Assembly: GCA_020720665.1 (NCBI GenBank)
Contig: DYOF01000002.1
Coordinates: 1-62,376, forward strand
Reading direction: 5' to 3'
Length of the DNA stretch: 62,376 nucleotides
From: Acetofilamentum sp.
GTDB taxonomy: Bacteria > Bacteroidota > Bacteroidia > Bacteroidales > JAADGE01
In this document: positions 2,568 through 62,376 of the stretch, in pieces
Position numbering within the stretch: position 1 is the stretch's first letter
Layout of the letters: every line of letters starts with the position of its first letter
Program-made: the position numbers and the translations under genes
The notes under the pieces: generated by a model
Databases searched by the model: none
Told to the model about the DNA's origin: nothing
Seen by the model: only the letters and a program-made list of their open reading frames with translations

Positions 2568-2585
2568 GTGTCTAAATATTTTTAA

Positions 2586-2740
2586 CTAATTAATAATCTG
2601 TAAATTGAATGCTTATGCTTATTTATAATCCTTGTTCTTTCCTGCACATAGGAACACTTCACTTTCTGTTAAATGTAATTGAGGTATTCTGTTAGTCATG
2701 CTCCTTTATGTAAAAAACTGTCTTACATGGGTGTTTCATA
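2586..2740 (-). repeat. Conserved ~170-nt leader element, copy A
   Basis: Shares long identical runs with copy B, read on the minus strand: aggagcatgactaacagaatacc (23 nt), tgaagtgttcctatgtgcag (20 nt) and cagattattaatta. The tttagacaNATGAAA end abuts the start codon at 2567. Confidence 0.85.
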
Positions 2741-10555: not shown

Positions 10556-11242
10556 TTATGTGTTGGGTTTGAACCTTGAAATCCCCGAAAGAAATTTCAT
10601 TTGTTTTAAGGCTAAAATTAAAATTGCAATTAAAAACGGAATAAATAAAATTAATAATATATTATTCCCCGACATCAAAATAAAGTCATAAAAACCGTGC
10701 AATACCACAGGAACAGAAATTGACAGGAATATCCAAAAAAAGAAATTAGAATTTTTAAATTTCGCCATTGCCAAAAAATACCCCATAGTTACACCAAAAA
10801 TTGTGTGAGCCGGAACAGCTGTTACAGCGCGTATAAAACCGGTTTGCATACCGTGTTGAAAAACGTATAAAATATTCTCTACTGCGGCAAAGCCTAAGGA
10901 AATATAAGCAGCATAAACAATTCCGTCAAATTTCTCATTAAAATTTTTACTTCTCCAAATAAGAATAATGAAGGCAAGATATTTGAATGTTTCTTCAGTA
11001 CCTGCCGCTACAATAAATGCATCGTAGGCTGCTTTAATCATTTGGTTGGTAAGTGTATATTTTTGTTCCCAATAATTACTTAAAGCAATTTCAATAAAAA
11101 GTATGGGTATAACTGTTAATGCACCTAAAATAAATGATTTAATTAATACAATACGCGGTTCTTTTTCATATCTGTCTCTGCGATAAACGTATATTAATAT
11201 CAGAACTATGGGAGCAAGGGCAATACCGATTAATGATAACAT
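10556..11242 (-). CDS. PrsW-family intramembrane protease
   Basis: 228 aa, polytopic. Shows the EETFKY and HGFYDF motifs of the PrsW family. Confidence 0.75.
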   Translation of the reverse strand: MLSLIGIALAPIVLILIYVYRRDRYEKEPRIVLIKSFILGALTVIPILFIEIALSNYWEQKYTLTNQMIKAAYDAFIVAAGTEETFKYLAFIILIWRSKNFNEKFDGIVYAAYISLGFAAVENILYVFQHGMQTGFIRAVTAVPAHTIFGVTMGYFLAMAKFKNSNFFFWIFLSISVPVVLHGFYDFILMSGNNILLILFIPFLIAILILALKQMKFLSGISRFKPNT

Positions 11243-23627: not shown

Positions 23628-26600
23628 ATGAATAAAAAAAGGCTTTTTCTGATATTAATTGTTTTGATTGGTTTTAATATTAATTATACATTTTCTCAAT
23701 CTGCCGTAAAATTTACAACCGACAGTATAATTTCAGAACTTAAACTGTTTTACCAAGTTAACAATGCTGATTTAGAAAAAGATAAGAAAGCATTAAAAAA
23801 GGATTCGATATTAAATAATTTAGCAGAATTATGGATTTCAGGCTTAAACGCTAATGAAAAAAAAATCATAAGCGAAATTGCAAATTATCATGTTTCAAGA
23901 AGCTTAGAAAAAGAAACAACACTGATGCAATTTATTCAATCAATTATCTTTTTAAAAACAAAGAATTCAACAAATTTTTCGGCATGGTTAAACATGTTAA
24001 ATTATCTTATAAACTCACAGCAAGTAAGTTCTGCAAAAACAGGACAGTTTATTGAAAGCGTATATTCACTTATTTCTGATAATTATTTGTTAAATAAAGC
24101 CTCATCGAAGTGGAAACTAAAAGAAAATACCGCCTTTAAATTTATTTATTCTCAACCGGAAAATAAATTCAGCATTCAATTTCCTGCTACAAACATAGAA
24201 TCATACAGTATTGACGGAGATACGATAAAAGTGTTGAACACACAAGGCGAGTATGATATTTTTGAATCTCATTGGAAAGGAAAAAACGGAACAATCACTT
24301 GGGAAAAATATGGCATTGCAGCTTCCGACATTAATGTAAAACTATCACACTACAATATAAACATGAATAAGACTGAATTTCATGCGGATTCGGTAGTTTA
24401 TATTAACAATCCGGCATTTAAGGAAAAAATTTTAGGGAAAATTACTGTTTTAGCTTCAAAAAGAGCCTTTACTCAAAGTCAAACACCCGAATTCACATCT
24501 TATCGAAATAATTTTAAAATTAAGAGTAAATATCCGAATATTTATTTTACTTCCGGAATTGAAATGAAAGGAAAAACTTTAAATTACGTAGGGACCGAAA
24601 CCGTACCTGCCGTTGCTGAATACATTTCTAACGGAAAACCTATAATAAAAGCTCGATCATTAAGGTTTTCGGATATTGATGAAACATTAAAATCAAATCA
24701 AACAGATATTAGTATATTTATTGCCGACAATGATTCAATTACACATCCTAATGTTTCATTTTCAGTAAAAAATGAGCAGTTTTCTTTTACAAGAAATTTA
24801 AAAGGAACCGGAAATAGTCCGTTCATGAATTCATACCAAATGATGAATTTTACAGTCGATAATATTGAATGGAACATAAAAGATTCACTCATTCACTTTT
24901 ATTCAAAAGCCGGAAACGAAGCGATGTTTAAATCAACAGATTATTTCACAAAGGAAGATTTTATAAAACAACAGATGTATGAAACAACAAATCCGTTGTT
25001 TGAAATTAATAAATATACAAAAAAAATAGGCTCTGATGAATTTTTCTCGCAGGATTTTGCTTCCTTTATTAAAAAACCGAGTACAACCGTTAATCACCGA
25101 TTAATGGAATTATGGTATGAAGGTTTTTTAGATTACAATCCGAACAATAATTATGTAAAAGTTAAACAAAAACTCTACGATTACATCCAATATTTTTTTG
25201 ATAAAAAAGACTACGACGTTATAAATATCATTTCAAAAGGTAAAGAGCGAACAAAAGATGCCCAATTATTTCCTGTATCGAATGCTGTGTTTGACATAAA
25301 AACAAATCAAATGGCACTTTTCGGAGTTGAACAAATCGTTTTAAACGAACGAAAAAAAGTCGGTATCGTTCCTGCAAACCAAATGATTTTAATCGGACAA
25401 AACAGACAATTGTTTTTTTCAGGTCGTTTAAGAGCCGGATTAGCTGATATTTACGGCAAAAGTTTTGCTTTTAATTATGAAAATTATGAAATTAATACAA
25501 GCAATGCCGACTCGTTAGTCTATCGAATTTGGGACAAAAAAATTTTAAATTCAGAAGAAAAATTATCTGCAAAATTCTTAAATTCAACAATTGAAAATGT
25601 AAGCGGAACGGTTAAAATTGATATTAAAACAAACAAATCCGGTTCAAAAGATAGTGCACAATTTCCGCTTTTTATATGTTCTGATACCTCTTATGTTTAC
25701 TACGATAAAAGAAACAAACAAGGAACAACATACCCGCGTGAGCGTTTTTATTTTAAAAACTATCCGTTTATGCATGACAGTTTATTATATATAACAAAGT
25801 CGCAATTGCTTATACCCGGAATGATGTTTACGGGAGATATTATACCGACTTTTCAAGACACATTAGAAGTTCAGAACGATTATTCTTTAGGTTTTATTCA
25901 CCAAACACCTGACGGCGGATTTCCGCTCTTTAAAGGAAAAGGAACCTTGTCATCTGGAAATAACAATATGAATAGCTTTATCAGGCTAAGCAACAACGGA
26001 TTAGAAGCTAACGGCGTAGCTAAATGGAACAATACAACAATAACAACAAAAGATTTCACTTTATACCCCGACTCACTGACTACTTTAGCCGATGAAATAG
26101 AAATTAGTGAATTTATTAATACCGAAACCTATGCAGAATTTCCGGTAGTTAAAGGAAAATTAGTTTCAACCAGCTGGGATGCTGTAAATGATGTTATTAG
26201 GTATAAAACAACCGGTATAGCAGTTGATATGTATAATGAAAAAGTTCAATTTTCGGGTAACTTTGAATACCGTCCTAAATCTCTGACAGGAAAAGGTCGT
26301 GCAAAAATTCAGGAAGGAACAGTTTCATCGGAGGATTTTGAATTTAACAAAAATTCATTTCTCTCTGAAAAAGCCGACATTAAAATAAATGAAAAAAATT
26401 CTGACACAAAAGACGTTATAATAAAAAACATGAAATCTTTCGTTGATTTAAAATCTGATAAAGCAGTGTTTCAAAAAATTGAAAATGAAGATTCATATGT
26501 ACATTTTGTAACCGACCAATATTTAAGCTATCCGAATCATTTAGTTTGGCATACCGGACAAGGTAAAATTAACCTGAATTACAATATGAGTAAATTCACG

Positions 26601-28292
26601 AATAAACTTTTCTCAAAAGATTCTATTTTGCTTGACAGCACTTATCTTACAGACTATTGCAGATTCGATAAAACTTTGTTTTCATCTTCATACGGCGATT
26701 TAAAATTTGTTTCAATAAAACCTGAACAAGATTCATTGATGTTTTTCGGCAGTCGTGCTAATTATTATACCGGTAACAAAAAAATTGTTGCTATGGATGT
26801 TCAAAAAATTATTGTTGCCGATATTGTTGTAACCCCTAACAGTGAGCTTATTATAAATGAAAACGGTGAAATGGAAAAGCTGTTAAAAACAATGGTTAAG
26901 GCACGAGGAATTCACAACATCAGCGATGTTGATATTAAAATTAACAGCAGCAAAAAATATGTTGCATCGGCAGGAATATATCAATATGAAGATATGAATA
27001 AAAACTTGCAAAACATTAATTTTGATAATATTACCTATGATGAAGCCGCCGGAGCTACCGTTGCACATGGTTTTGTCGATCAATATCAAAAATTCAACCT
27101 CAATCCGTGGTTTAATTATTACGGCGATGTAAATTTTAATGCATCAAAAGACCGACTTCGATTTGAAGGATACGCACGTATAATTCATTCATGTCCTTCA
27201 ATTCCGCAGTGGTTTTATTTTGAATCGGAAATTAATCCGGACAGTATTTACTTACCCCTCGAATCGAAATTATACTCTGATTTAGCTTCAAATAAAGCCC
27301 GAATTTATGCAGATATTATGTCTTCAAAAGACTCGACACATGTTTTTCCTGTATTCTTATCGACCGACCCTTACGGAAATTCAGAATCAATTTTATCTCT
27401 AAGAGACTCTTCGTTTTATGTTACGTACAACGATAACGAAAATAAATACGAAATTACAACATTAGCAAAGTTTAATAACCGAAGCCTTCCGGATGCATAT
27501 TTGGAATTACAAAGAAGCAAATGTATTATTAACGGCGAAGGTCCGTTAAGCCTGTCGGAAACCGTAAAAGTAAATGAGTTTAAAAGTTTCGGAGAATTAC
27601 GTTTTGATACAAATTCTGATGAATTTACAATGGGAACATTAACATATTTAGACTTTTTCTTTGCGAAGAAGCCCTTAGATATTTTGAATGAAAAATTAAT
27701 TTTAAATCCGAATTTAAGTGGTATTCCGTTGGAAAATGACTCCTATAAAAAGCCCATGTATCAAATTATAGGAATTGAAACATGCGATAAAATGCTCAGT
27801 GAAATGTCATTAAATGCCGGAGTACTTAAAAAATTTCCGAAAGAACTTGATAAAACCATAGTTTTTACAAATTTAGCCTTTAAGTGGGATAAAAAATCAA
27901 TATCCTATAAATCAATAGGAAAAATAGGTATTTCCAACATAGGCAATCAAATGATTAATAAATATGTTAACGGATATATTCAAGTAAGAAAACGATTAAA
28001 CGGTGATAAAATATTTATTTATCTTGAAACCGGCGAAAAGGAATGGTTTTTCTTTGCATTTTCCGGCGGTATTTTACGAACCCTTTCTTCTGTAAGTGAA
28101 TACAATCAGGTTATTTCAGATATGAAAACTAAAGATAAGAAAATTAAAACCGATAAAGGAATTTTTAATTATATGCTCACAAATGAAGAAACTAAAAACT
28201 TGTTCATTTATGAATTTACCGGAGTTCATCCTGCTATTGACAACTTTAACGGAAGCACGGAAGACTTGCTTGATGATGAAGAAAATAATTAG
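23628..28292 (+). CDS. Very large exported hypothetical protein (1554 aa)
   Basis: Uninterrupted 4.66-kb ORF with a signal peptide (LFLILIVLIGFNINYTFSQS). I recognised no domain. Confidence 0.8.
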   Translation: MNKKRLFLILIVLIGFNINYTFSQSAVKFTTDSIISELKLFYQVNNADLEKDKKALKKDSILNNLAELWISGLNANEKKIISEIANYHVSRSLEKETTLMQFIQSIIFLKTKNSTNFSAWLNMLNYLINSQQVSSAKTGQFIESVYSLISDNYLLNKASSKWKLKENTAFKFIYSQPENKFSIQFPATNIESYSIDGDTIKVLNTQGEYDIFESHWKGKNGTITWEKYGIAASDINVKLSHYNINMNKTEFHADSVVYINNPAFKEKILGKITVLASKRAFTQSQTPEFTSYRNNFKIKSKYPNIYFTSGIEMKGKTLNYVGTETVPAVAEYISNGKPIIKARSLRFSDIDETLKSNQTDISIFIADNDSITHPNVSFSVKNEQFSFTRNLKGTGNSPFMNSYQMMNFTVDNIEWNIKDSLIHFYSKAGNEAMFKSTDYFTKEDFIKQQMYETTNPLFEINKYTKKIGSDEFFSQDFASFIKKPSTTVNHRLMELWYEGFLDYNPNNNYVKVKQKLYDYIQYFFDKKDYDVINIISKGKERTKDAQLFPVSNAVFDIKTNQMALFGVEQIVLNERKKVGIVPANQMILIGQNRQLFFSGRLRAGLADIYGKSFAFNYENYEINTSNADSLVYRIWDKKILNSEEKLSAKFLNSTIENVSGTVKIDIKTNKSGSKDSAQFPLFICSDTSYVYYDKRNKQGTTYPRERFYFKNYPFMHDSLLYITKSQLLIPGMMFTGDIIPTFQDTLEVQNDYSLGFIHQTPDGGFPLFKGKGTLSSGNNNMNSFIRLSNNGLEANGVAKWNNTTITTKDFTLYPDSLTTLADEIEISEFINTETYAEFPVVKGKLVSTSWDAVNDVIRYKTTGIAVDMYNEKVQFSGNFEYRPKSLTGKGRAKIQEGTVSSEDFEFNKNSFLSEKADIKINEKNSDTKDVIIKNMKSFVDLKSDKAVFQKIENEDSYVHFVTDQYLSYPNHLVWHTGQGKINLNYNMSKFTNKLFSKDSILLDSTYLTDYCRFDKTLFSSSYGDLKFVSIKPEQDSLMFFGSRANYYTGNKKIVAMDVQKIIVADIVVTPNSELIINENGEMEKLLKTMVKARGIHNISDVDIKINSSKKYVASAGIYQYEDMNKNLQNINFDNITYDEAAGATVAHGFVDQYQKFNLNPWFNYYGDVNFNASKDRLRFEGYARIIHSCPSIPQWFYFESEINPDSIYLPLESKLYSDLASNKARIYADIMSSKDSTHVFPVFLSTDPYGNSESILSLRDSSFYVTYNDNENKYEITTLAKFNNRSLPDAYLELQRSKCIINGEGPLSLSETVKVNEFKSFGELRFDTNSDEFTMGTLTYLDFFFAKKPLDILNEKLILNPNLSGIPLENDSYKKPMYQIIGIETCDKMLSEMSLNAGVLKKFPKELDKTIVFTNLAFKWDKKSISYKSIGKIGISNIGNQMINKYVNGYIQVRKRLNGDKIFIYLETGEKEWFFFAFSGGILRTLSSVSEYNQVISDMKTKDKKIKTDKGIFNYMLTNEETKNLFIYEFTGVHPAIDNFNGSTEDLLDDEENN

Positions 28293-47736: not shown

Positions 47737-49203
47737 ATGGATATAATTATTATAACAATATTCTTAGCTTTCACTCTTTTATGTTTGATATATTCATATG
47801 TTCCGAATGAATTACAATCTTTAGCCAATATTGCCGGGTTCAGTAAATTATCACTTCGGTTTGGCATTTTACGACTTCAAAAAATACCTGTAAAACTGCT
47901 TTTTGAAGAATATTCGAAACTAAAACAGCATGATATTAATATTGATTTTGATGATTTTAATAAAATTTGGAAAACCGGAGAAGAAAATATTCATCAAATC
48001 ACAAATATTTTAATTAAAGCAAAGCAAAAAGGACTTAATATTTCTTTATCAGAAATTGAAACTTATAATTTAAACAATACAAATTCCGAGAATTATTATA
48101 AAATATTACAAAATTCTCAACACTTCAATTTACATATTTCATCTGAAGAAATTTTAGATTTGCTTCGCTCTGATTTTGATTCCGATACCTATTTTAAAAT
48201 TTATTCTGCAAGTAAACAATTAAATCTTAATATAAACCGGTCTGAAATTTTTAAATCAGATTTTCAATCAGCACTTAAATATATTGAAACGGTTAAAACA
48301 GCTGTTGAAATGAATTTAGAATATAATTTTATACAACAGTCAGAATTTAATTTTAAGGAAAAAACCGATTTATTAATAAATTTCATCGAAATTAATAAAC
48401 ATAATATTGCAATTTCAAACGACGAACTGATTGAATTTACCAAAAATAAGTTAAATTTAAACGATTTCATTGATGCAATAAAGCTGATAAGAACAAATAA
48501 TTTAGACCCAATATCAAACGAACAAATTAAAAATCACTTTCAAAAAGGCGGTAATCCAAAACAAGTTTTAGAGTCATTTTTATACCTAAACGCAAATAAT
48601 ATAAACCTAAGCCCCGAAACTTTGTTTACAATTGATTTAAAGCAAAAAGGAAATTTAACAGACATAATTAAAAAAACAGTCATCCCTTTTGACAGTGAAC
48701 CTATTAATATCTCAGCCGTTATACTAAAAGACGGCTTAACAATTATTCCGAAAATAGTTTTAAGTTTAAAAGAAAAAATTGAAACCGTAAACAATTATTT
48801 TGACGAGAATATTTTTTTTATGTCAATCAGTGAAATTATCAGAAAAGAATTTTTAAAATTTAATTCTTATGAAGATTTACTAAAAAATTTGAATTCCTTT
48901 TCTGAAAACGCAATCAATAAAATTAATACTGATTATAAAAATATTGAAAACAGTCGTTTCATTTTAAATGAAATTAAAATTATTGATTTAAAAACTGAAG
49001 AAAATACAACATCAAAAATCAATAAAGAAAATATTCGCTTAAAAACAGAAGAATTTAAACTTAAAAAAGCTGAAACCGAATTGAAATTAAGTGAAGAAAT
49101 AGCTGATGCTTTTAAAAAAGGAAAAATAAGTTTAAAAGATTATCAAAAAGAAAAATATATTTTCGGCTCTGATACCGAAGGTGAATTACCTTACACAAAA
49201 TAA
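47737..49203 (+). CDS. Highly divergent FloA-like (UPF0365) paralog with expanded helical repeats
   Basis: 488 aa. The N-terminal TM helix plus LRLQKIP aligns with FloA MRLQSIP. The repeat ILIKAKQKGLNISLSEIE resembles a FloA unit. The C-terminus ADAFKKGKISLKDYQKE aligns with FloA ASAFLDGNLSVNDYQKI. Confidence 0.6.
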   Translation: MDIIIITIFLAFTLLCLIYSYVPNELQSLANIAGFSKLSLRFGILRLQKIPVKLLFEEYSKLKQHDINIDFDDFNKIWKTGEENIHQITNILIKAKQKGLNISLSEIETYNLNNTNSENYYKILQNSQHFNLHISSEEILDLLRSDFDSDTYFKIYSASKQLNLNINRSEIFKSDFQSALKYIETVKTAVEMNLEYNFIQQSEFNFKEKTDLLINFIEINKHNIAISNDELIEFTKNKLNLNDFIDAIKLIRTNNLDPISNEQIKNHFQKGGNPKQVLESFLYLNANNINLSPETLFTIDLKQKGNLTDIIKKTVIPFDSEPINISAVILKDGLTIIPKIVLSLKEKIETVNNYFDENIFFMSISEIIRKEFLKFNSYEDLLKNLNSFSENAINKINTDYKNIENSRFILNEIKIIDLKTEENTTSKINKENIRLKTEEFKLKKAETELKLSEEIADAFKKGKISLKDYQKEKYIFGSDTEGELPYTK

Positions 49204-49230
49204 TATATTCGTTAAATAAAACCGATTAAA

Positions 49231-50415
49231 ATGATAACGGCACTTATTCTCATTATAATTTTCATAATTGTTTTGTTCTTTTGGTACTTTGCACCGTTTT
49301 CATTATGGTATAAAGCCAAATTGTCAGGCATTGAAGCCGGATTAGGAAACATGGCAAAAATGCGATTACAAAGCATACCTCACGAACTGATAATTTCTAA
49401 TTTAATAAAAGCAAATAATGCCGGTTTACCTGTTAAAAGTTCTGAACTAATGCAAAATTATTTAGCCGGTGTTAATATTGAAAACGTTGTTGATTCGGCA
49501 ATCCGTGCAAAAAATGCAGGCATATCTTTAAACTTTAATAACATAGCTAAACATTACTTAGCTAAAGTTGATACCGACCGAATTATCCATGCCTTAATTA
49601 CGGCACACAATGCAGGCATAAATACCGATATAAATGAATTAGCTTCATTTTATTTATCAAACGTTGATATCATAAAGATTGTAGATGCTGCCGTAAGTGC
49701 TAAAAATGCCGGATATGAACACATTACACTTCAAATTCTGAAAGAGCATAATTTATCAAACGGAAATGTTATAAAAGCTGTAAATGCATATATTGCTGCA
49801 AAAGAAGCACATTACAACGAAATTACATTTAAGGAAATTGCCGCAATTGATTTAACAGAACTCGATGTAACCGATGCCGTAAATCGTTCAATTAATCCCG
49901 TTGTTATTGAAACTGATCTTATTAAAGGTATTTGTGCTGACGGAATTGAAATTCAGTTGAAACTAAAATTAACCGTCAGAGCCGATTTAAAAAATATTAT
50001 CGGCGGTGCAAATGAACAAACTGTTTTTGCAAGAGTTAATGAATACCTTACAACAGAAATCGGACGAACTGAAAACCATCAGGAAGTTTTAAGAAATCCA
50101 TACGAATTAGCCCAAAAAGTTCAATTGAAAGAATTAGGAAGAGCTACAGCTTTTGAAATTTTATCTGTTGATGTTTCAAATATAAATGTGGGAAAAGATA
50201 TTCAAGCTAAATTATTAAAAGAACGTGCAAAAGCAAATGCCGAAAAAGCAAAAACAGAATATATAAAAGCAGAAGAAAAAGTTCAAAAAGCTATGGCATC
50301 CGCATTTTTAGACGGAAATTTATCAGTTAACGATTACCAAAAAATACAAAACACCGAAGCTGATACAAAAATGAGAAAAGACATCAGCAATTCAATAAAA
50401 AAAGATAAAAAGTAA
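49231..50415 (+). CDS. floA: Flotillin-like protein FloA (UPF0365/YqfA family), repeat-expanded
   Basis: 394 aa. Shows NPVVIETDLIKGICADGIEIQLKLKLTVRA, AFEILSVDVSNINVGKDI and DYQKIQNTEADTKMR. About five KA.NAG...YLA-type units precede the core. Confidence 0.8.
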   Translation: MITALILIIIFIIVLFFWYFAPFSLWYKAKLSGIEAGLGNMAKMRLQSIPHELIISNLIKANNAGLPVKSSELMQNYLAGVNIENVVDSAIRAKNAGISLNFNNIAKHYLAKVDTDRIIHALITAHNAGINTDINELASFYLSNVDIIKIVDAAVSAKNAGYEHITLQILKEHNLSNGNVIKAVNAYIAAKEAHYNEITFKEIAAIDLTELDVTDAVNRSINPVVIETDLIKGICADGIEIQLKLKLTVRADLKNIIGGANEQTVFARVNEYLTTEIGRTENHQEVLRNPYELAQKVQLKELGRATAFEILSVDVSNINVGKDIQAKLLKERAKANAEKAKTEYIKAEEKVQKAMASAFLDGNLSVNDYQKIQNTEADTKMRKDISNSIKKDKK

Positions 50416-50464: not shown

Positions 50465-51250
50465 TTACTTCAACCAACGTCTGAGCCACATTTCGGCTGC
50501 ATAAATCTTCCGAGTGGTCCAACTGTTAATCGGTACATTTAAACCGGTTTTTATTAATAAAGTTCCTTTAGGCTGACCTTCATAAACATTTACCTCAAGA
50601 GTTGAATTTGTGTAATCCGGACTCAAAAAATTGCCGATGACATAATTTGCTTCAAAATTAAAAAACATAAAATTAAAGCCTAAAATTGCCGCTAAATTAC
50701 TTTTTCTAAGCATTTCCTTATAATTTGCAGGCTGAGTTGTAGAGGATGTTGCCGAATAACTTACATTATCGGTTTTACTTAAGAATAAATTATAACTGTA
50801 TGAAACACCTCCGTATAAATACTTTTGACTTTCATAAAACTTTTTTCCGTATTTAATATAAACCGGAACTGTTACCTGCGACACTCGATAAGTTTCTTTT
50901 AATGTATAACTTGGTATTGAAGCTGTATAATAATTTGCAGCAATACCATACATTTTATATTCTAATCCTATACTTATCCCGGCATTATTACTTTTTAAAT
51001 CATGACTATACATTAAACTTCCGTAATAACCCGGTACATAATTAATATTAAAACTCGTATCCGGAAATAATTGTAAATGATCTAGCCCGTTTTTTGATAA
51101 TAACATAAAATTTAATAAAGTATCCGGTTGAGGAGATAAAACGGAATGATTTGCTCCTATTTTTATTGAAAAATAATCATACTCACTATCCCACTGTGAA
51201 AATGAATAAGTAGTGATTAAAATAAATATTATTATTATTGACTTTTTCAT
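50465..51250 (-). CDS. Outer-membrane beta-barrel (porin-family/PorT-like) protein
   Basis: 261 aa with a signal peptide and alternating aromatic/hydrophilic beta-strand pattern (YSYNLF, ANYVIGNF). Confidence 0.55.
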   Translation of the reverse strand: MKKSIIIIFILITTYSFSQWDSEYDYFSIKIGANHSVLSPQPDTLLNFMLLSKNGLDHLQLFPDTSFNINYVPGYYGSLMYSHDLKSNNAGISIGLEYKMYGIAANYYTASIPSYTLKETYRVSQVTVPVYIKYGKKFYESQKYLYGGVSYSYNLFLSKTDNVSYSATSSTTQPANYKEMLRKSNLAAILGFNFMFFNFEANYVIGNFLSPDYTNSTLEVNVYEGQPKGTLLIKTGLNVPINSWTTRKIYAAEMWLRRWLK

Positions 51251-51307: not shown

Positions 51308-52933
51308 TTAAGGCCTGTAGTGCCAAAAATCATTAAAATCTAATTCCGGCACACCTGCCCAACCGCTACCCACATACGCTCTATAGTCATTATCACTTAT
51401 TTTAATGCCTACACCCACTGCTTCATATCTGGGTTTTCCTACCTGTACACCGTCAATTTTCCCGAAATCAGCTCTTTGTTCCCATTGATTGGTGAACGGG
51501 TTATATCTGTAAAAATCAGATAAAGCCTCACCGGAAGAATTTTTACCTAAGCCTACATAGCCCATTTCACCTAATGCAAACCCCACAGCCTCCACACGGG
51601 CTTCGCCCGGAAACGGTGTACGTTGCGTCCAACTCAAATAATCGCCTGTAGTTTGTCGGCACATCCACAAATCATTTTTATATACACCGGCTTCATCTCT
51701 TCCGCATGCAACATAAACATTGCTTCCTAAGGTAAAACAAACGGCTTCGGTTCGTTTACCGCCCGGGAAATTACCAATTTTTGTCCACGTTCCTCTTTCA
51801 TGATATAAACTTTTTTCCGTAGGATCATATTTGTAAACATATTCAACAGGCTCATTGCTGTAATCGGTTGTTCCTAAGGCTACATAGCCTATTCCGTTTA
51901 ATGAAAAAGCAATTGAATTTTCTGTAATAGTTCCGGGAAAATCAGCTCGTGATGTACCTTCTGTAATATTTTCCCATGTTCCCCACTCTCCTAAAGGTTT
52001 GTGTAAAACATCCGTCAGTTCTAATCTGTAAAAATTTACATTACCGGCATCGCCGTCATTGGTAATACCGAGTCCTAAAAATAAATAATCTGATTCTTGA
52101 TTATTTTCTAATTTAATATCTTCAAGAACAAAACAAACTGCATTTGTAAAATTAACCTGCTCTCCTACAGTAAAATTTTTGTACGGGTTATCCCATGAAT
52201 TACTTACCGGGTCGTATCTGTATAGCTCAATTTGATTACTCATAGGGGCTTCATCATGTCCTTGTAATATAAACATATATCCGTTGTATGAAAAAGATGT
52301 TGCACCCCAATAATAATTATCGTCAAAAGCTGCCGGAGTATCGGTCATACCGCCTCCTACCCACAAATCAACCGGGCTTTTTGTATTAATTTCTAAATCT
52401 TTTTGATTGTATGCAATATCTTTATATACCGGTAAACCTCCCACAAAACGACCGGTAACAACGAATGACCGCACATAATAGGTTTCTTCATAATGCAATC
52501 CTAAACTGCTTTGAAATTCTTTTCCTGCAAATAAATCTTCACCGGTTAAAAAACTTTCAGGTGCTTCTGTTCCTTTAAAATGATAAGAAGAATTTTGTTT
52601 TAAACGTTCTAATAAATTTATTTTACTCACAGAATCATATCCGCAAACTACCGGATTTGGATTTTTTGAATAAACATGACCGTATATTAAAATACTGTCT
52701 TTCAACATTCCGTTGTCATATTTTTTTACATAAGTAATATTTTCTTGTATAACAGCATAATTATCAGTAACAATAATTAAACTGTCCGGCGTACCGCTGA
52801 TATATTTGACTTTACCGTCCGGTGTAATAAACGTACCGCCGTCAAACTCTCTCGTAAAGGCATACGGATTCTCATCATATTTACAAGATGATATCAGTAA
52901 AAACGCTAACAGAAAATAAGTAATTTTTTTCAT
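51308..52933 (-). CDS. Kelch-like beta-propeller lipoprotein
   Basis: 541 aa with a lipobox (LISSC). Repeated blades of the form (D/N)(F/L)W.Y.P..N.W....FPG..R..AV.F.....YVGLG. Confidence 0.7.
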   Translation of the reverse strand: MKKITYFLLAFLLISSCKYDENPYAFTREFDGGTFITPDGKVKYISGTPDSLIIVTDNYAVIQENITYVKKYDNGMLKDSILIYGHVYSKNPNPVVCGYDSVSKINLLERLKQNSSYHFKGTEAPESFLTGEDLFAGKEFQSSLGLHYEETYYVRSFVVTGRFVGGLPVYKDIAYNQKDLEINTKSPVDLWVGGGMTDTPAAFDDNYYWGATSFSYNGYMFILQGHDEAPMSNQIELYRYDPVSNSWDNPYKNFTVGEQVNFTNAVCFVLEDIKLENNQESDYLFLGLGITNDGDAGNVNFYRLELTDVLHKPLGEWGTWENITEGTSRADFPGTITENSIAFSLNGIGYVALGTTDYSNEPVEYVYKYDPTEKSLYHERGTWTKIGNFPGGKRTEAVCFTLGSNVYVACGRDEAGVYKNDLWMCRQTTGDYLSWTQRTPFPGEARVEAVGFALGEMGYVGLGKNSSGEALSDFYRYNPFTNQWEQRADFGKIDGVQVGKPRYEAVGVGIKISDNDYRAYVGSGWAGVPELDFNDFWHYRP

Positions 52934-52950
52934 CTGTCTAAAAATTTATA

Positions 52951-53104
52951 ATTAATTAATAATCTGCAAATTGAATTGATATTACTATTAATAATGTTTT
53001 TTTCTCTGCACATAGGAACACTTCAATTATGCACTAAACATAATTACGGTATTCTGTTAGTCATGCTCCTGTGAGCTAAAAATTGTCTTACATTGGTGTT
53101 TTAT
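52951..53104 (-). repeat. Conserved ~170-nt leader element, copy B
   Basis: Collinear with copy A and ends at the Kelch-lipoprotein ATG (52933). See the copy A evidence. Confidence 0.85.
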
Positions 53105-53245
53105 GTGTTTATTTTTTAATTTTCGTTATAAATTTCAAAATGTCCTTTTTTAAAGCATAAAATTATACAAATAAAACGAAATTTCATTAAAATAAATTGT
53201 TTTTTTGATAAATGCTTTTAATAAAACAACTAAATCAATTAAATC

Positions 53246-53270: not shown

Positions 53271-53401
53271 AATTTAACAGTCTTTTAATAAATAAAATTT
53301 AAAATAAATGACATTTTGTCTATATATAAGGTTTGGCAAAAATTTTGATTAGTTTCACAGCGTTGATATGATTATTTAATTAATAACAAATTGAGTTAAG
53401 T

Positions 53402-60124: not shown

Positions 60125-61561
60125 TTGGAAATAAAAAACAAAATATTAAACGAATTTTTTAAAATAATACTATTCGGTTTCTCATCATACATCTTGGGTT
60201 TAATACGTTTTTCAATTCCCGGTTTAGAAAGTACTACAAGTGATTTTAGGGAAATACCGCTATTGATAAGTATTTTTCATGTTTCAAATCCGATTTCATT
60301 AATCATAATGAGTTTGATTACTTCATTAGATTTTATAACTCAACATACATTTACTCAAACCTTTATCTCACATGCTTTTGCACTAACAGTATCATGGTAC
60401 ATCTTCAAATTTATTAAAACAAAAAAAAGGTCTTACTACATTTCCGGTTTTATTTGGCTCAGTTATGTGACCATATATTATTTTATTTTTTTAGTTCCCG
60501 CGATTATTATTTCTTATGAAATATCAGATATATATATCGACACTCCGTTTTGGCTCTCATTCCAAAAGTTTATATTTTCACTCCGTTTTGAAATTATTGC
60601 AACAAGTCTTATTACTTCATTATACTTAATACAATTAAAAATAAGGAAAGAACTAATCAAGCAAAAAGATTATTTAGAAACAGCCGTTAGAGAAAGAACC
60701 GATGAACTTGAAAGCGCCAATGAAGAATTAGTATCAATTAATGAAGAATTAATATCGGCAAACGAAACAATGTCAGATAAAAATGAAATTATAAATAAAC
60801 AAAATATAGACTTACAAAACACTTTAAACAATTTAAAAGAAGCACAAATACAACTTCTTCATGCTGAAAAAATGGCTTCCTTAGGAACTTTAACTGCAGG
60901 GGTTGCACATGAAATTAATAATCCGTTAAATTTTATATTGGGTTCCTATCATGCCTTAGAAGAATATTTTAAAAATTACGGAAGTCAAGACACAAAAAAA
61001 ACAACTTTTTTATTGGAGAGTATAAAAACAGGTATTGAAAGAACTTCAGAAATTGTGAAAGGCTTAAATCAATTCAGCAGAAGTAACAAAACCCTTGATG
61101 AAGATTGCGAACTTCAACCAATAATAGAGAACTGTTTGGTGATGTTAAATAACCCCTTCCGACATAGGATAAACATAATTAAAAATTATGACCCTGAAAT
61201 AAATTATATTAAAGGAAACATAGGAAAACTCCATCAAGTTTTTATGAATATCATTTTCAATGCAATTCAAGCAATTGATGATGAAGGAGAAATAATTATA
61301 ACTACTAAAAAAATAAATACGAATGTTCATATTGAAATTTCCGATAACGGTTGCGGAATAGATAAAAACAATTTACCCAAAATTGCCGACCCGTTTTTCA
61401 CAACAAAAGACTCCGGTAAAGGTATCGGATTAGGTTTATCCATTTCATATTCCATTATCAAAGAACATAAAGGAGAAATTTCTTTTGAATCTGAGCTGAA
61501 TAAAGGCACAAAAGTACTGATTGTAATACCTGTTAATTTAAATTATGACCCCAAAAATTAA
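60125..61561 (+). CDS. Membrane sensor histidine kinase
   Basis: 478 aa. Polytopic N-terminus, coiled coil, H-box (AHEINNPLNF), N-box (NAIQA) and G-boxes (DNGCGI, GKGIGLGLS). The TTG start is uncertain. Confidence 0.85.
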   Translation: MEIKNKILNEFFKIILFGFSSYILGLIRFSIPGLESTTSDFREIPLLISIFHVSNPISLIIMSLITSLDFITQHTFTQTFISHAFALTVSWYIFKFIKTKKRSYYISGFIWLSYVTIYYFIFLVPAIIISYEISDIYIDTPFWLSFQKFIFSLRFEIIATSLITSLYLIQLKIRKELIKQKDYLETAVRERTDELESANEELVSINEELISANETMSDKNEIINKQNIDLQNTLNNLKEAQIQLLHAEKMASLGTLTAGVAHEINNPLNFILGSYHALEEYFKNYGSQDTKKTTFLLESIKTGIERTSEIVKGLNQFSRSNKTLDEDCELQPIIENCLVMLNNPFRHRINIIKNYDPEINYIKGNIGKLHQVFMNIIFNAIQAIDDEGEIIITTKKINTNVHIEISDNGCGIDKNNLPKIADPFFTTKDSGKGIGLGLSISYSIIKEHKGEISFESELNKGTKVLIVIPVNLNYDPKN

Positions 61562-61913
61562 AATCTTATACGTAGATGATGAACCTATTAATCTTCAACT
61601 ATTCGAAATAATTTTTAATAGTCAATATGAAATATTAACTGCAAAAAACGGTATAGAAGGACTTTCTGTTTTAGAAAAATCACCCGATATTAAAATTATA
61701 CTAAGTGATATGAAAATGCCGATAATGTCCGGCTTAAATTTCATTCAAAAAGCCCATGAATTATACCCCGATAAAAAATATTTTATAGTAACCGGATTTG
61801 AAGCAACTCCAGAAATTTTAAATGCTGTTGATTCCGAACTGATTGTTAAATATCTAAGTAAACCATTTATTATCAATGAAATAAAAACTGAAATTGCAAA
61901 TGCATTAAAATAA
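61545..61913 (+). CDS. Stand-alone response-regulator receiver protein (CheY-like)
   Basis: 122 aa with LYVDDEP, SDMKMP and SKP. No output domain. Overlaps the kinase gene by 17 nt. Confidence 0.88.
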   Translation: MTPKIKILYVDDEPINLQLFEIIFNSQYEILTAKNGIEGLSVLEKSPDIKIILSDMKMPIMSGLNFIQKAHELYPDKKYFIVTGFEATPEILNAVDSELIVKYLSKPFIINEIKTEIANALK

Positions 61914-62100
61914 GTATCTCAGTTTTTTTCTATAATTCATTTTTATCATTTAAGCTCTGCAACTCTTTTACATAGTATCAACGAACCACAAATAATTAGT
62001 CCTGTTCTGTATTTTAAAAATAATTCAAATATTTAATCTTGTTTACAACAAATATATTTTTAAATTTATATTCTGTATTTTATAATATCTAAATCATATT

Positions 62101-62267
62101 AAACACCCATAATAACAATGTTTTCACACATAGAGCATGGCTGACAGAATTCCATAATTGCGTTTCGTTCAAAAAAAAATATTCTTATGTGCAGGAAAAA
62201 CAAGCAAAATTAATAATGATAAGCATTCAATTAACAAATTCTTAACTAACTATAAAATTTTAAACAG
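62101..62267 (+). repeat. Conserved ~170-nt leader element, copy C
   Basis: Collinear with A and B: aaacacccat, gagcatggctgacagaattcc, ttatgtgcaggaaaaacaag and ataagcattcaatt. It ends in aaacagATG at 62268-62270. Confidence 0.8.
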
Positions 62268-62269
62268 AT

Positions 62270-62376
62270 GAAACACCCATGATAAACAAGTTTAACACAC
62301 AAGGACATGACTAAACAAATCACCTTGCATAATTGCGTAGAGTTTTCAGATGTTCCTATCTGCGGGGAAAAACAAG
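62270..62376 (+). repeat. Conserved leader element, copy D (truncated by the window edge)
   Basis: gaaacacccatg, ggacatgactaaac, cataattgcgt and gttcctatctgcggggaaaaacaag. It starts directly at the ATG that terminates copy C. Confidence 0.75.

What the first reader, a model, noticed from the sequence alone, without database searches (positions are those of the whole stretch)
52934..53104. Copy B of the leader element drives a second, unrelated exported-protein pair (Kelch lipoprotein plus beta-barrel protein)
The block order and spacing match copy A, ending TTTAGACAG-ATG at 52933. The downstream genes are a Kelch-like lipoprotein and a putative outer-membrane beta-barrel. They have no similarity to the genes behind copy A. 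The element is therefore shared by different cargo genes rather than being part of a gene duplication. All four downstream products have signal peptides or anchors, which suggests a regulon of envelope or secreted proteins. By eye, the Kelch gene and the 308-aa gene look less AT-rich than their neighbours. That is an impression only and was not computed. The short ORF that opens copy A (MKHPCKTVFYIKEHD) is absent here because ATG is replaced by ATA. The conserved unit is therefore nucleic acid, not a leader peptide.
Basis: partly seen in the sequence, partly recalled or inferred. Interest (0 to 1): 0.7.

Follow-up and report, generated by a model that had tools for sequence, protein, structure and literature searches.

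The report
Start-codon-targeting repeat element of Bacteroidota
The "leader" in front of the Kelch lipoprotein gene is one copy of a short repeated DNA element, widespread in Bacteroidota and apparently undescribed, that inserts at the start codon of unrelated genes and rebuilds that codon, so it is mobile DNA and not the switch of an envelope-protein regulon.

Summary
Copy B (52934-53104, minus strand) is real. It is 77% identical to copy A over about 205 nt, and the similarity stops at the start codon.

Orthologous loci in other MAGs show that copies A and B are clean insertions. The empty site reads ...ATGAA..., and the filled site reads ...AT(G/A)AA-[element]-ATGAA-gene. The "short ORF" of copy A is therefore the gene's former start codon.

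A pattern scan found the family in about 72 loci from about 27 assemblies, nearly all Bacteroidota, plus one phage contig. Forms range from about 90 to 190 nt. Tandem arrays are common, and 99-100% identical copies sit at unrelated genes. About 38% of linked genes lack a hydrophobic N-terminus, including recognisably cytoplasmic enzymes.

A central segment pairs with both element ends, including the downstream AUG, with some covariation. There is no Rfam match, no terminal inverted repeats and no transposase partner.

Verdict: this is a site- and orientation-specific non-autonomous repeat of unknown mobilisation mechanism. The envelope-regulon idea is not supported. I found no description of it in the literature.

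The parts
52934..53099 (-). Body of element copy B (long subfamily), from ACACCAATG... to ...TTTAGACAG. It is inserted directly 5' of the Kelch gene's start codon.
   Evidence: Alignment A3 shows this stretch is absent from the orthologous loci L015 and L016.
53100..53104 (-). Relic of the gene's original start (ATAAA, decayed from ATGAA). This is the upstream copy of the duplicated target pentamer.
   Evidence: The empty site reads ..TTAAAC|ATGAA|AAAATTAC. The filled site reads ..AAACAC|ATAAA|[element]|ATGAA|AAAATTAC.
52929..52933 (-). Downstream ATGAA. This is the functional start codon plus the first two bases of codon 2 of the Kelch lipoprotein gene.
53057..53064 (-). Conserved single-stranded box ATGACTAA, part of CA.AGGRRATGAYTAA, the most conserved block of the family.
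53006..53021 (-). Central segment GTGTTCCTATGTGCAG. Its left half pairs with the element's 5' end (AACAC, helix P1). Its right half (TATGTG) pairs with the 3' end plus start codon (CA(C/G)ATG, helix P3). In copy B, P3 has one G-G mismatch.
   Evidence: family-level pair counts; fold of B.
53164..53180 (-). Block TTCGTTTTATTTGTATA, conserved with element-free orthologues. In L015 and L016 it reads TATATTTG, a match to the Bacteroidetes -7 promoter motif TAnnTTTG. It is the presumed ancestral promoter of the Kelch operon (inferred).
   Evidence: invariant columns upstream of the insertion. The motif assignment rests on my own knowledge.
51308..52933 (-). Kelch/NanM-like lipoprotein gene (541 aa).
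50465..51250 (-). 261-aa putative outer-membrane beta-barrel gene. Its start is an empty site here but is filled by an element copy in L017 and L018.
2568..2739 (-). Copy A: relic ATGAA (2735-2739) plus the element body (2568-2734), in front of the 308-aa conserved hypothetical gene (1641-2567).
   Evidence: Element-free orthologues L101, L102 and L103 start ATGGAAAA and share the left flank.
62098..62267 (+). Copy C: relic ATTAA (62098-62102) plus the element body (62103-62267).
62268..62376 (+). Junction ATGAA (62268-62272) and copy D, which is cut by the window end. In L001, D runs to 10895 and the alpha-2-macroglobulin ATG is at 10896.

Best explanation
Copy B is a member of a Bacteroidota-wide family of short (about 90-190 nt) repeats that encode no protein. 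These elements insert in a single orientation at the pentamer ATGAA where it forms the start of a gene (Met-Lys/Asn), and they leave that pentamer on both sides. The upstream copy is the gene's former start codon. It opens a meaningless mini-ORF (MKHP...) or decays, to ATA in copy B and ATT in copy C. The downstream copy keeps the gene intact.

The element has no recognisable promoter or terminator. By inference, it is therefore transcribed inside the 5' UTR from the gene's ancestral promoter.

A central segment (GGRTGTTCC-ATGTGAC) is complementary to the element's 5' end (helix P1) and to its 3' end plus the downstream ATG (helix P3). In a tandem or circular form it is nearly the reverse complement of the junction GACAC-ATGAA-ACAYCC. 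The A-rich 3' tail leaves the real start region about as accessible as that of ordinary genes.

I therefore read copy B as a largely neutral, self-accommodating insertion. It is not the driver of a regulon. The way it moves was not shown. My best guess (inferred) is site-specific recombination or single-strand transposition in trans, through a folded or circular intermediate in which the central segment presents the ends.
For: (1) Three empty-versus-filled comparisons with orthologous, syntenic loci: the Kelch start, the barrel-gene start and the 308-aa gene start. In each, the insertion is bounded by ATGAA-like repeats.

About 72 are real by covariance model, from about 27 assemblies that are nearly all Bacteroidota. 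One copy lies in a phage contig, at an overlapping stop/start.

(3) Three 90-nt copies that are 99-100% identical sit at unrelated genes in one MAG. At least 37 units occur in one Flavobacteriaceae MAG.

(4) Tandem arrays of 2-3 units share a single ATGAA between units.

(5) Of 75 units with a defined 3' end, 52 abut an ORF of at least 80 aa and 8 abut another unit. The genes are functionally unrelated.

(6) P1 and P3 are 83% paired over 100 distinct copies. There are 73 double-change cells against 22 in shuffles, and slid controls reach only 16-39% paired. Subfamilies show ACAUCC/GGAUGU, ACACCC/GGGUGU, ACGCCC/GGGCGU and ACCCUC/GAGGGU.

(7) No Rfam family matches.

(8) Predicted unpaired probability of the downstream start region is 0.59, against 0.56 for ordinary ATGAA gene starts. 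The relic start region scores lower, at 0.51.
Against: No transposase or recombinase partner was found, and no copy carries one. The element has no terminal inverted repeats, so the usual MITE mechanism does not apply.

Copies sit at true gene starts roughly ten times more often than the supply of non-coding ATGAA sites predicts. This needs either an extended target or selection.

An orthologous copy is 89/90 identical between assemblies labelled as different genera, whose flanking coding sequence is about 89% identical. The Kelch gene carries copies of different subfamilies in three lineages. Both facts could mean the element is kept for a function.

G-U pairs are not favoured over A-C mismatches in the helices. 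In the unfitted alignment of 21 pattern-selected copies, covariation is thin: 2 pairs and 6 cells.

Confidence: 0.7

Rival explanations
1. Dispersed cis-regulatory RNA module. Whatever its origin, the element is retained because, as part of the 5' UTR, it places the linked genes under common post-transcriptional control. Helix P3 would occlude the start codon, translation of the relic mini-ORF or a trans factor binding the conserved box (CA.AGGRRAUGAYUAA) would open it, and a 'regulon by repeat' would result, as proposed for Neisseria REP2.
For: Covariation supports P1 and P3, and P3 contains the downstream AUG. A roughly 20-nt unpaired box is conserved across the phylum. The element is more conserved than the flanking coding sequence at an orthologous site. 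Copies are enriched at real gene starts. Minimal copies fold better than shuffles, with z between -2.1 and -2.9. [quoted passage not shown]
Against: The linked genes are functionally unrelated. P3 is weak: the consensus fold is only -4.7 kcal/mol, and the downstream start region is predicted to be as open as in ordinary genes. The long copies A and B in this window do not fold better than shuffles (z -1.5 and +0.4). The relic ATG is lost in copies B and C. Helix conservation is equally expected if a transposition machinery reads the fold.
Confidence: 0.25
2. One reading: a shared leader or promoter element that drives a regulon of envelope or secreted proteins.
For: All four linked products in this window have a signal peptide, lipobox or membrane anchor. 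Family-wide, 62% of linked ORFs have a hydrophobic N-terminus, against 32% of all ORFs (p = 4e-5).
Against: Compared with genes that start MK/MN, the excess disappears (62% against 48%, p = 0.11). 38% of linked ORFs lack a hydrophobic N-terminus, and several are recognisable cytoplasmic enzymes. Orthologues without the element keep the same conserved upstream block. The promoter scan of the copy B region found no more sites than in shuffles.
Confidence: 0.04
3. Leader-peptide attenuator: the conserved unit is the mini-ORF MKHP..., whose translation or stalling controls the downstream gene.
For: Most copies keep the upstream ATG, and the ORF begins M-K-H-P. Two L017 copies encode MKHPF* with synonymous differences.
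Against: ORF length and sequence after codon 4 are not conserved: MKHP*, MKHPF*, 15-29 codons, with frame changes caused by 1-nt indels. The ATG is lost in copies B and C and in other copies (ATA, ATT). MK is dictated by the target, and HP by the bases that form helix P1.
Confidence: 0.04
4. Chance similarity, or a recent segmental duplication within this genome.
For: None beyond the AT-richness of the region.
Against: The BLASTN matches have E 2.5e-40 and 5e-24. Similarity stops at the start codon. The family is found in about 27 other assemblies.
Confidence: 0.01

Closest known systems
IS110/IS1111-family insertion sequences (DEDD transposase with a seekRNA or bridge RNA)
   Same: Insertion is site-specific and orientation-specific, without conventional terminal inverted repeats. 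Target choice is nucleic-acid-guided, and the donor must be flanked by the correct target (PMC11187229). From my own memory, not checked here: IS492 is flanked by a 5-bp repeat of its target and excises as a circle, and IS900-type elements insert between the ribosome-binding site and the start codon.
   Different: Those elements are 1.2-1.5 kb and encode their own transposase and guide RNA. These are 90-190 nt with no ORF. The central segment is complementary to the element's own ends on one strand only, not to both strands of the target. No DEDD transposase was linked to any copy. The one seen near L103 shows no sequence resemblance to the element.
Neisseria REP2 repeats
   Same: Both are short repeats lying directly upstream of unrelated ORFs and contributing the ATG. 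REP2 is associated with regulation of genes for host-cell interaction (Delihas 2011, PMC3184786).
   Different: REP2 is described as carrying a promoter and a Shine-Dalgarno site. Here no promoter is evident, Bacteroidota rarely use Shine-Dalgarno sites, and the element leaves a relic start codon and forms tandem arrays.
Classical bacterial MITEs (Correia/CREE, ERIC, RUP, Nezha)
   Same: They are non-autonomous, under 200 bp and multi-copy. They show filled and empty sites between relatives, are flanked by short direct repeats, often lie 5' of genes and are co-transcribed (PMC3184786).
   Different: MITEs are defined by terminal inverted repeats and a target duplication of loose specificity, such as TA. 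This element has no terminal inverted repeats, has one fixed 5-nt target and always lies in the sense orientation at gene starts.
IS200/IS605-derived palindrome-associated elements (PATEs)
   Same: They have no terminal inverted repeats, insert strand-specifically next to a fixed 4-5-nt target, and have ends recognised through intramolecular base pairing in single-stranded DNA (my own knowledge).
   Different: Those elements have local subterminal hairpins and make no target duplication. Here the pairings are long-range (spans of 35-60 nt) to one central segment, the same pentamer lies on both sides, and no Y1 transposase was seen.
Rickettsia palindromic elements, and the translational bypass ('byp') elements of T4 gene 60 and Magnusiomyces
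   Same: These selfish insertions are tolerated inside or at the edge of coding sequence because the reading frame or start is preserved. Byp elements are flanked by matching codons (my own knowledge).
   Different: Those elements are translated or hopped over within ORFs. This one lies 5' of a regenerated start codon.

Membership tests
MITE (miniature inverted-repeat transposable element) | Terminal inverted repeats at the two ends | tested here: not met
   The 5' end is ACAYCCAT, and the reverse complement of the 3' end is GTGTCTAT. Only 4 of 8 bases match. Inspection of the copies shows that the inverted repeats link each end to the centre, not to each other.
MITE (miniature inverted-repeat transposable element) | Short, non-coding, multi-copy, flanked by direct repeats, with filled and empty sites between relatives | tested here: met
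REP/BIME | A 20-40-nt GC-rich palindrome with a conserved GTAG-type head, lying mostly between convergent genes or after genes | tested here: not met
   The element is 90-190 nt, AT-rich (27-37% GC) and lies at gene starts. Only nested GC-rich hairpins inside some copies look REP-like.
IS200/IS605-type PATE | A fixed 4-5-nt target at the left end and strand-specific insertion | tested here: met
   ATGAA lies at the left of every intact copy, and all copies are in the sense orientation.
IS200/IS605-type PATE | Local subterminal hairpins, no target duplication, and a Y1 (HUH) transposase in the genome | tested here: inconclusive
   The pairings are long-range. The pentamer lies on both sides, which could equally be a right-end cleavage site identical to the target. 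The transposase could not be sought genome-wide.
IS110/IS1111-type site-specific element (non-autonomous derivative) | Specific target, fixed orientation, no terminal inverted repeats, and a short core repeated at both ends | tested here: met
IS110/IS1111-type site-specific element (non-autonomous derivative) | A DEDD transposase and a guide RNA that matches both strands of the target; a circular intermediate | not testable with these tools
   A motif search of all fetched loci found no IS110 C-terminal motif. One IS110-family gene lies near L103, but its flanks are unlike the element. Circles need an experiment.
Known structured RNA family (Rfam 15: riboswitches, leaders, ribozymes, sRNAs) | A match to a curated covariance model | tested here: not met
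   No hit at gathering score in the window or in 7 carrier loci. Only noise appeared at E up to 10.
Riboswitch or cis-regulatory leader of a regulon | Consistent association with functionally related genes across species | tested here: not met
   The downstream genes are unrelated. Orthologues of the same genes lack the element.
Leader-peptide attenuator | A conserved upstream ORF, with start codon, length and peptide maintained | tested here: not met
Neisseria REP2-like promoter/RBS/ATG repeat | The repeat supplies a promoter and ribosome-binding site, and the linked genes are co-regulated | not tested
   The sigma-70-type scan is uninformative for Bacteroidota. No expression data were available.

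The most novel reading that the evidence does not exclude
This is a previously undescribed class of mobile element that homes to start codons. It is a non-coding unit of about 90 nt, spread through Bacteroidota and their phages. It recognises ATGAA at gene starts, regenerates the start codon, and carries an internal 'anti-junction' complementary to its own right end, core and left end. That architecture suggests self-templated, nucleic-acid-guided site-specific recombination through a folded single strand or a circle, and/or a design that keeps the host gene translatable.
Probability: 0.4. Interest if true: 0.8.

Novelty: new variant of a known kind. Interest (0 to 1): 0.66.

Why it matters
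If confirmed, this element would show that a very small non-coding unit can spread through a whole phylum by targeting the first five bases of coding sequences without destroying them.

This matters in three ways. First, for mobile-DNA biology, it would be a new target logic whose mobilising enzyme is unknown and which may be nucleic-acid-guided. Second, for annotation, relic start codons, mini-ORFs and 90-250-nt "leaders" in Bacteroidota would be explained, and start-site calls could be corrected. Third, for translation in Bacteroidota, which lack Shine-Dalgarno-led initiation, the element amounts to a natural experiment: a structured insert placed immediately 5' of dozens of start codons.

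It also removes a false lead. The four envelope genes in this window are not a regulon on this evidence.

Tried and rejected
- **Strict two-block scan of genome contigs:** 0 hits, not even the window's own copies. The source genome is therefore absent or masked, and a genome-wide census of this organism was impossible.
- **Three-block scan of metagenome contigs:** 10 hits, all random by nhmmer.
- **Rfam, at gathering and E-value thresholds:** nothing.
- **Sigma-70 promoter and terminator scan:** no excess over shuffles, and of limited meaning for Bacteroidota.
- **Search for an autonomous copy (element ends separated by an ORF):** none. The pattern hits without a 3' end were chance matches or copies interrupted by insertions.
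- **Regex search for the IS110 C-terminal motif in all loci:** none.
- **Annotation of most of the rest of the window through two further look-ups:** housekeeping genes only, no transposase or integrase.
- **BLASTN against plasmids and phage GenBank records:** no match.
- **Literature searches by sequence strings and by keywords:** no description of such an element.
- **G-U against A-C mismatch counts, to tell an RNA from a DNA constraint:** uninformative (39 against 57 in core pairs by my tally; 53 against 101 over all pairs).
- **IS110-family gene 670 nt upstream of the L103 orthologue:** inspected, and its flanks do not resemble the element.
- **Hammerhead-type ribozyme, tRNA-like fold, group I-type internal guide:** considered by eye and dropped for lack of any supporting motif.

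Full report
**1. The observation**

On the minus strand, the stretch 53104-52934 ends ...TTTAGACAG, directly before the ATG (52933-52931) of a 541-aa gene. BLASTN of this region against the whole window finds copy A at 2560-2759 (77.3% identity over 207 columns, E 2.5e-40).

The alignment keeps block order and spacing, and similarity ends within a few bases after the ATG. Reading on at the window's end shows that copy C (62103-62267) is followed head-to-tail by a fourth copy, D.

The window is contig DYQH01000002.1 of MAG GCA_020719425.1. In the longer contig, copy D ends exactly at the ATG of a 1852-aa bacterial alpha-2-macroglobulin gene.

The gene descriptions hold:
- The 541-aa product has Kelch/NanM matches and a lipobox.
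- The 261-aa product has a weak OMP beta-barrel match.
- The 308-aa product behind copy A is a conserved hypothetical protein with an N-terminal membrane anchor.

The GC impression is numerically right (36.8% and 35.4% against 32.3 +/- 3.3%). Both values lie inside the range of ordinary genes here.

**2. The element is an insertion at the start codon**

Homologues of the Kelch protein led to syntenic loci (grpE divergent from Kelch plus barrel) in three other uncultured Bacteroidota. In L015 and L016 the intergenic region aligns with the window up to the start codon but lacks the roughly 170-nt element.
- Empty site: ..TTAAAC|ATGAA|AAAATTAC
- Filled site..AAACAC|ATAAA|[ACACCAATG...TTTAGACAG]|ATGAA|AAAATTAC

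The ATG of copy A's "short ORF" is the same thing, still intact.

A conserved block upstream of the insertion is shared with the element-free orthologues. In L015 and L016 it reads TATATTTG, a match to the Bacteroidetes -7 motif (my own knowledge). The ancestral promoter region therefore lies 5' of the element. That copy B is co-transcribed is inferred, not shown.

The same logic holds at two further sites:
- The barrel gene is empty in the window and in L015, but filled in L017 and L018.
- The 308-aa gene is filled in the window (copy A) but empty in L101, L102 and L103. Their coding sequence starts ATGGAAAA, so the ATGAA pentamer is missing.

L017 and L042 also carry copies at the Kelch start, but of shorter subfamilies (81 and 129 nt). 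The window's copy B is therefore probably an independent insertion at the same site.

**3. The family**

A strict pattern built from copies A-D found nothing in the genome collection. A three-block pattern found only chance matches in metagenomes.

Nearly all are Bacteroidota: Flavobacteriaceae, Bacteroidales, Aequorivita, Arenibacter, Winogradskyella, Sphingobacteriia, MAGs labelled 'Chlorobi', and one Balneolaceae. A covariance model confirmed about 72 of these loci and found further, more divergent copies. One copy lies in an IMG/VR phage contig between two genes whose stop and start overlap (..CTATGAAA).

Features of the family:
- The commonest form is 90-94 nt. Longer forms (106-190 nt) carry extra sequence in the loops.
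- Copies A-D belong to a long subfamily that is also seen in L079, L053, L084 and L090.
- Tandem arrays of two or three units, often of different subfamilies, share a single ATGAA between units.
- One MAG holds three copies that are 99-100% identical at unrelated genes. One Flavobacteriaceae MAG holds at least 37 units.
- Where the downstream codon 2 is AAG or AAT, the upstream repeat is still ATGAA. The duplicated unit is therefore five bases.
- In copies found without the ATG-containing pattern, the 5' pentamer is mostly ATGAA. In some it has decayed to ATAAA, ATTAA or GTGAA.

**4. The regulon idea**

Of 75 units with a defined 3' end, 52 abut an ORF of at least 80 aa and 8 abut another unit. 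The ORFs are unrelated. From their N-terminal sequences I recognise among them flavodoxin, SDR/FabG, CoaD, QueA, ArgH and KdsB.

Hydrophobic N-termini occur in 32 of 52 linked ORFs. The comparison values are 72 of 149 for element-free ORFs that also start MK/MN (p = 0.11) and 144 of 457 for all ORFs (p = 4e-5). The envelope flavour of the four window genes therefore follows largely from the target. Met-Lys is the usual opening of signal peptides.

The association with true gene starts is nonetheless stronger than the supply of ATGAA sites predicts, by roughly tenfold over non-coding ATGAA sites. This is unexplained. It points either to an extended target or to selection.

**5. Anatomy**

RNAalifold on 21 non-redundant minimal copies predicts two helices:
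- P1 pairs the first bases of the element (A)ACAYCC(AU) with (AU)GGRUGU(U).
- P3 pairs CAUGUG(A)C with G(A)CACAUG, which includes the downstream start codon.

The two 3'/5' strands are adjacent. The central segment ATGGATGTTCCATGTGAC is therefore almost the reverse complement of the junction GACAC-ATGAA-ACATCCAT that exists in tandem arrays, and that would exist in a circle.

Pair counts:
- On the model-fitted alignment of 100 distinct copies, 83% of cells are paired. There are 73 double-change cells against 22 +/- 4 in shuffles, and slid controls reach only 16-39% paired.
- On the unfitted alignment of pattern-selected copies, covariation is thin: 2 pairs and 6 cells.

The clearest support comes from divergent subfamilies:
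- P1: ACAUCC/GGAUGU, ACACCC/GGGUGU, ACGCCC/GGGCGU, ACCCUC/GAGGGU
- P3: CAUGUG/CACAUG against CAUCUG/CAGAUG

One subfamily (ATGAAACGAGC...) lacks an obvious P1. G-U pairs are not favoured over A-C mismatches, so an RNA constraint cannot be told from a DNA constraint.

Between the helices lie a variable hairpin and a conserved unpaired box, CA.AGGRRAUGAYUAA. GC-rich palindromes are sometimes nested between TTCC and ATGTG.

Folding:
- Minimal copies fold better than shuffles, with z between -2.1 and -2.9.
- When the 5' flank reads CACAUG, the central CAUGUG prefers the upstream (relic) AUG.
- The long copies A and B in this window do not fold better than shuffles.
- The predicted unpaired probability of the real start region (0.59) equals that of ordinary ATGAA gene starts (0.56). 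The relic start region scores lower, at 0.51 (p = 9e-6).

**6. Mechanism: what is shown and what is inferred**

Shown:
- precise, oriented insertions at ATGAA
- regeneration of the start codon
- multi-copy dispersal, including near-identical copies and a phage copy
- tandem arrays
- internal complementarity to both ends

Inferred:
- The element rides in the 5' UTR of its host gene.
- It is tolerated because it restores the start codon in an open, A-rich context and partly hides the relic start.
- It is mobilised in trans by an enzyme that recognises the folded ends.

I favour a site-specific recombinase or a single-strand transposase acting on a folded or circular intermediate. The reasons are the absence of terminal inverted repeats, the fixed orientation, the short core on both sides and the tandem arrays. 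This is a guess. No partner enzyme was found. An IS110-family gene near one orthologue is unrelated in sequence.

The main rival is that the element is kept as a translational control module that gives its hosts a common response, in the manner proposed for Neisseria REP2. Three facts fit that view: the element is more conserved than the flanking coding sequence at an orthologous site (89/90 against about 89%), it recurs at the Kelch gene, and it is enriched at true starts. The two views are not exclusive.

**7. Comparison with known systems, and novelty**

The element is not a member of any Rfam family. It fails the defining MITE feature of terminal inverted repeats, and it is not REP-like.

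It behaves most like target-specific elements of the IS110/IS1111 or IS200/IS605 kind. It is twenty times smaller than the former, however, and shows neither their hairpin layout nor their enzymes.

Sequence-string and keyword searches of the paper library found no description of it. This does not prove that none exists.

I classify it as a new variant of a known kind, namely bacterial non-autonomous interspersed repeats. Its unusual properties are start-codon homing with regeneration of the codon, and an internal anti-junction.

**8. Verdict on the finding**

- Right: the element is nucleic acid, is shared by unrelated cargo, and is not a gene duplication or a leader peptide.
- Not supported: that it drives an envelope regulon.

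Noticed in passing
window 62170-62276 compared with L001 10812-10904 (copies C and D): The 3' halves of the tandem copies C and D are 100% identical over about 98 nt, from GGAAAAACAAGC to ATGAAACAC. Their 5' halves are only about 70% identical. This suggests gene conversion or recombination between adjacent units, with a breakpoint at the central segment.
   Followed up: partly
L031, L073, L092, L018, L083; L080 5068-5191: GC-rich palindromic hairpins, such as CTGCCTACCGGCAGGCAGG, are nested inside some copies, always between TTCC and ATGTG of the central segment. They may be a second, REP-like repeat that uses the element as its target, or a tolerated third helix.
   Followed up: no
L065 1810-2256: Three tandem units begin about 55 nt after a Bacteroidales-type small SRP RNA gene (Rfam RF04183, 108.7 bits) and end at the start of an SDR gene.
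   Followed up: no
L100 7813-7915 (IMG/VR UViG 3300006226_001713): A copy lies in a phage contig, inserted at an overlapping stop/start (..CTATGAAA). The upstream ORF ends ...EWGGDWKMKDYPHFELKL, and the next gene encodes a small protein with a hydrophobic stretch. The upstream gene keeps its TGA inside the 5' ATGAA.
   Followed up: partly
L040 (Arenibacter certesii DSM 19833) and L085 (Winogradskyella epiphytica CECT 7945): The two isolate assemblies are 100% identical over more than 1 kb around the element. This indicates contamination, mislabelling or very recent transfer. Against L091 and L080 the element differs at 1 of 90 bases, while the flanking coding sequence is about 89% identical.
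   Followed up: partly
window about 53305-53345 (grpE-Kelch divergent intergenic region): Two blocks are conserved in all four species: TCAAAAT(A/T)TTTGCC and the near-palindrome GACAAAATGTCAT. They lie on the grpE side and may be a heat-shock operator or promoter for grpE-dnaJ.
   Followed up: no
window 47737-50415: Two adjacent FloA (flotillin-like) paralogues of 488 and 394 aa lie next to the Kelch-barrel pair. Synteny is conserved in L015 and L016 but not in L017.
   Followed up: no
window 23628-28292: A 1554-aa ORF has no Pfam family on record.
   Followed up: no
window 60125-61913: A histidine kinase and a receiver-only response regulator, overlapping by 17 nt, lie directly upstream of the C-D array and the alpha-2-macroglobulin gene. 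In L015 and L017 the alpha-2-macroglobulin gene has a peptidase M1 gene as its neighbour on the 3' side.
   Followed up: no
L103 1259-2329: An IS110-family transposase gene (DEDD_Tnp_IS110 plus Transposase_20) lies 670 nt upstream of the element-free orthologue of the 308-aa gene. Its flanks carry a 14-nt inverted repeat (GAGTTCGATATAAG) and do not resemble the element.
   Followed up: partly
L102 2230-2990: The roughly 770-nt region upstream of the 308-aa orthologue in this MAG holds internally repeated, GC-richer sequence (..GGGTTTTCAACC.., ..GGTTGAAAACCC..). It looks like a different structured or repeated element.
   Followed up: no
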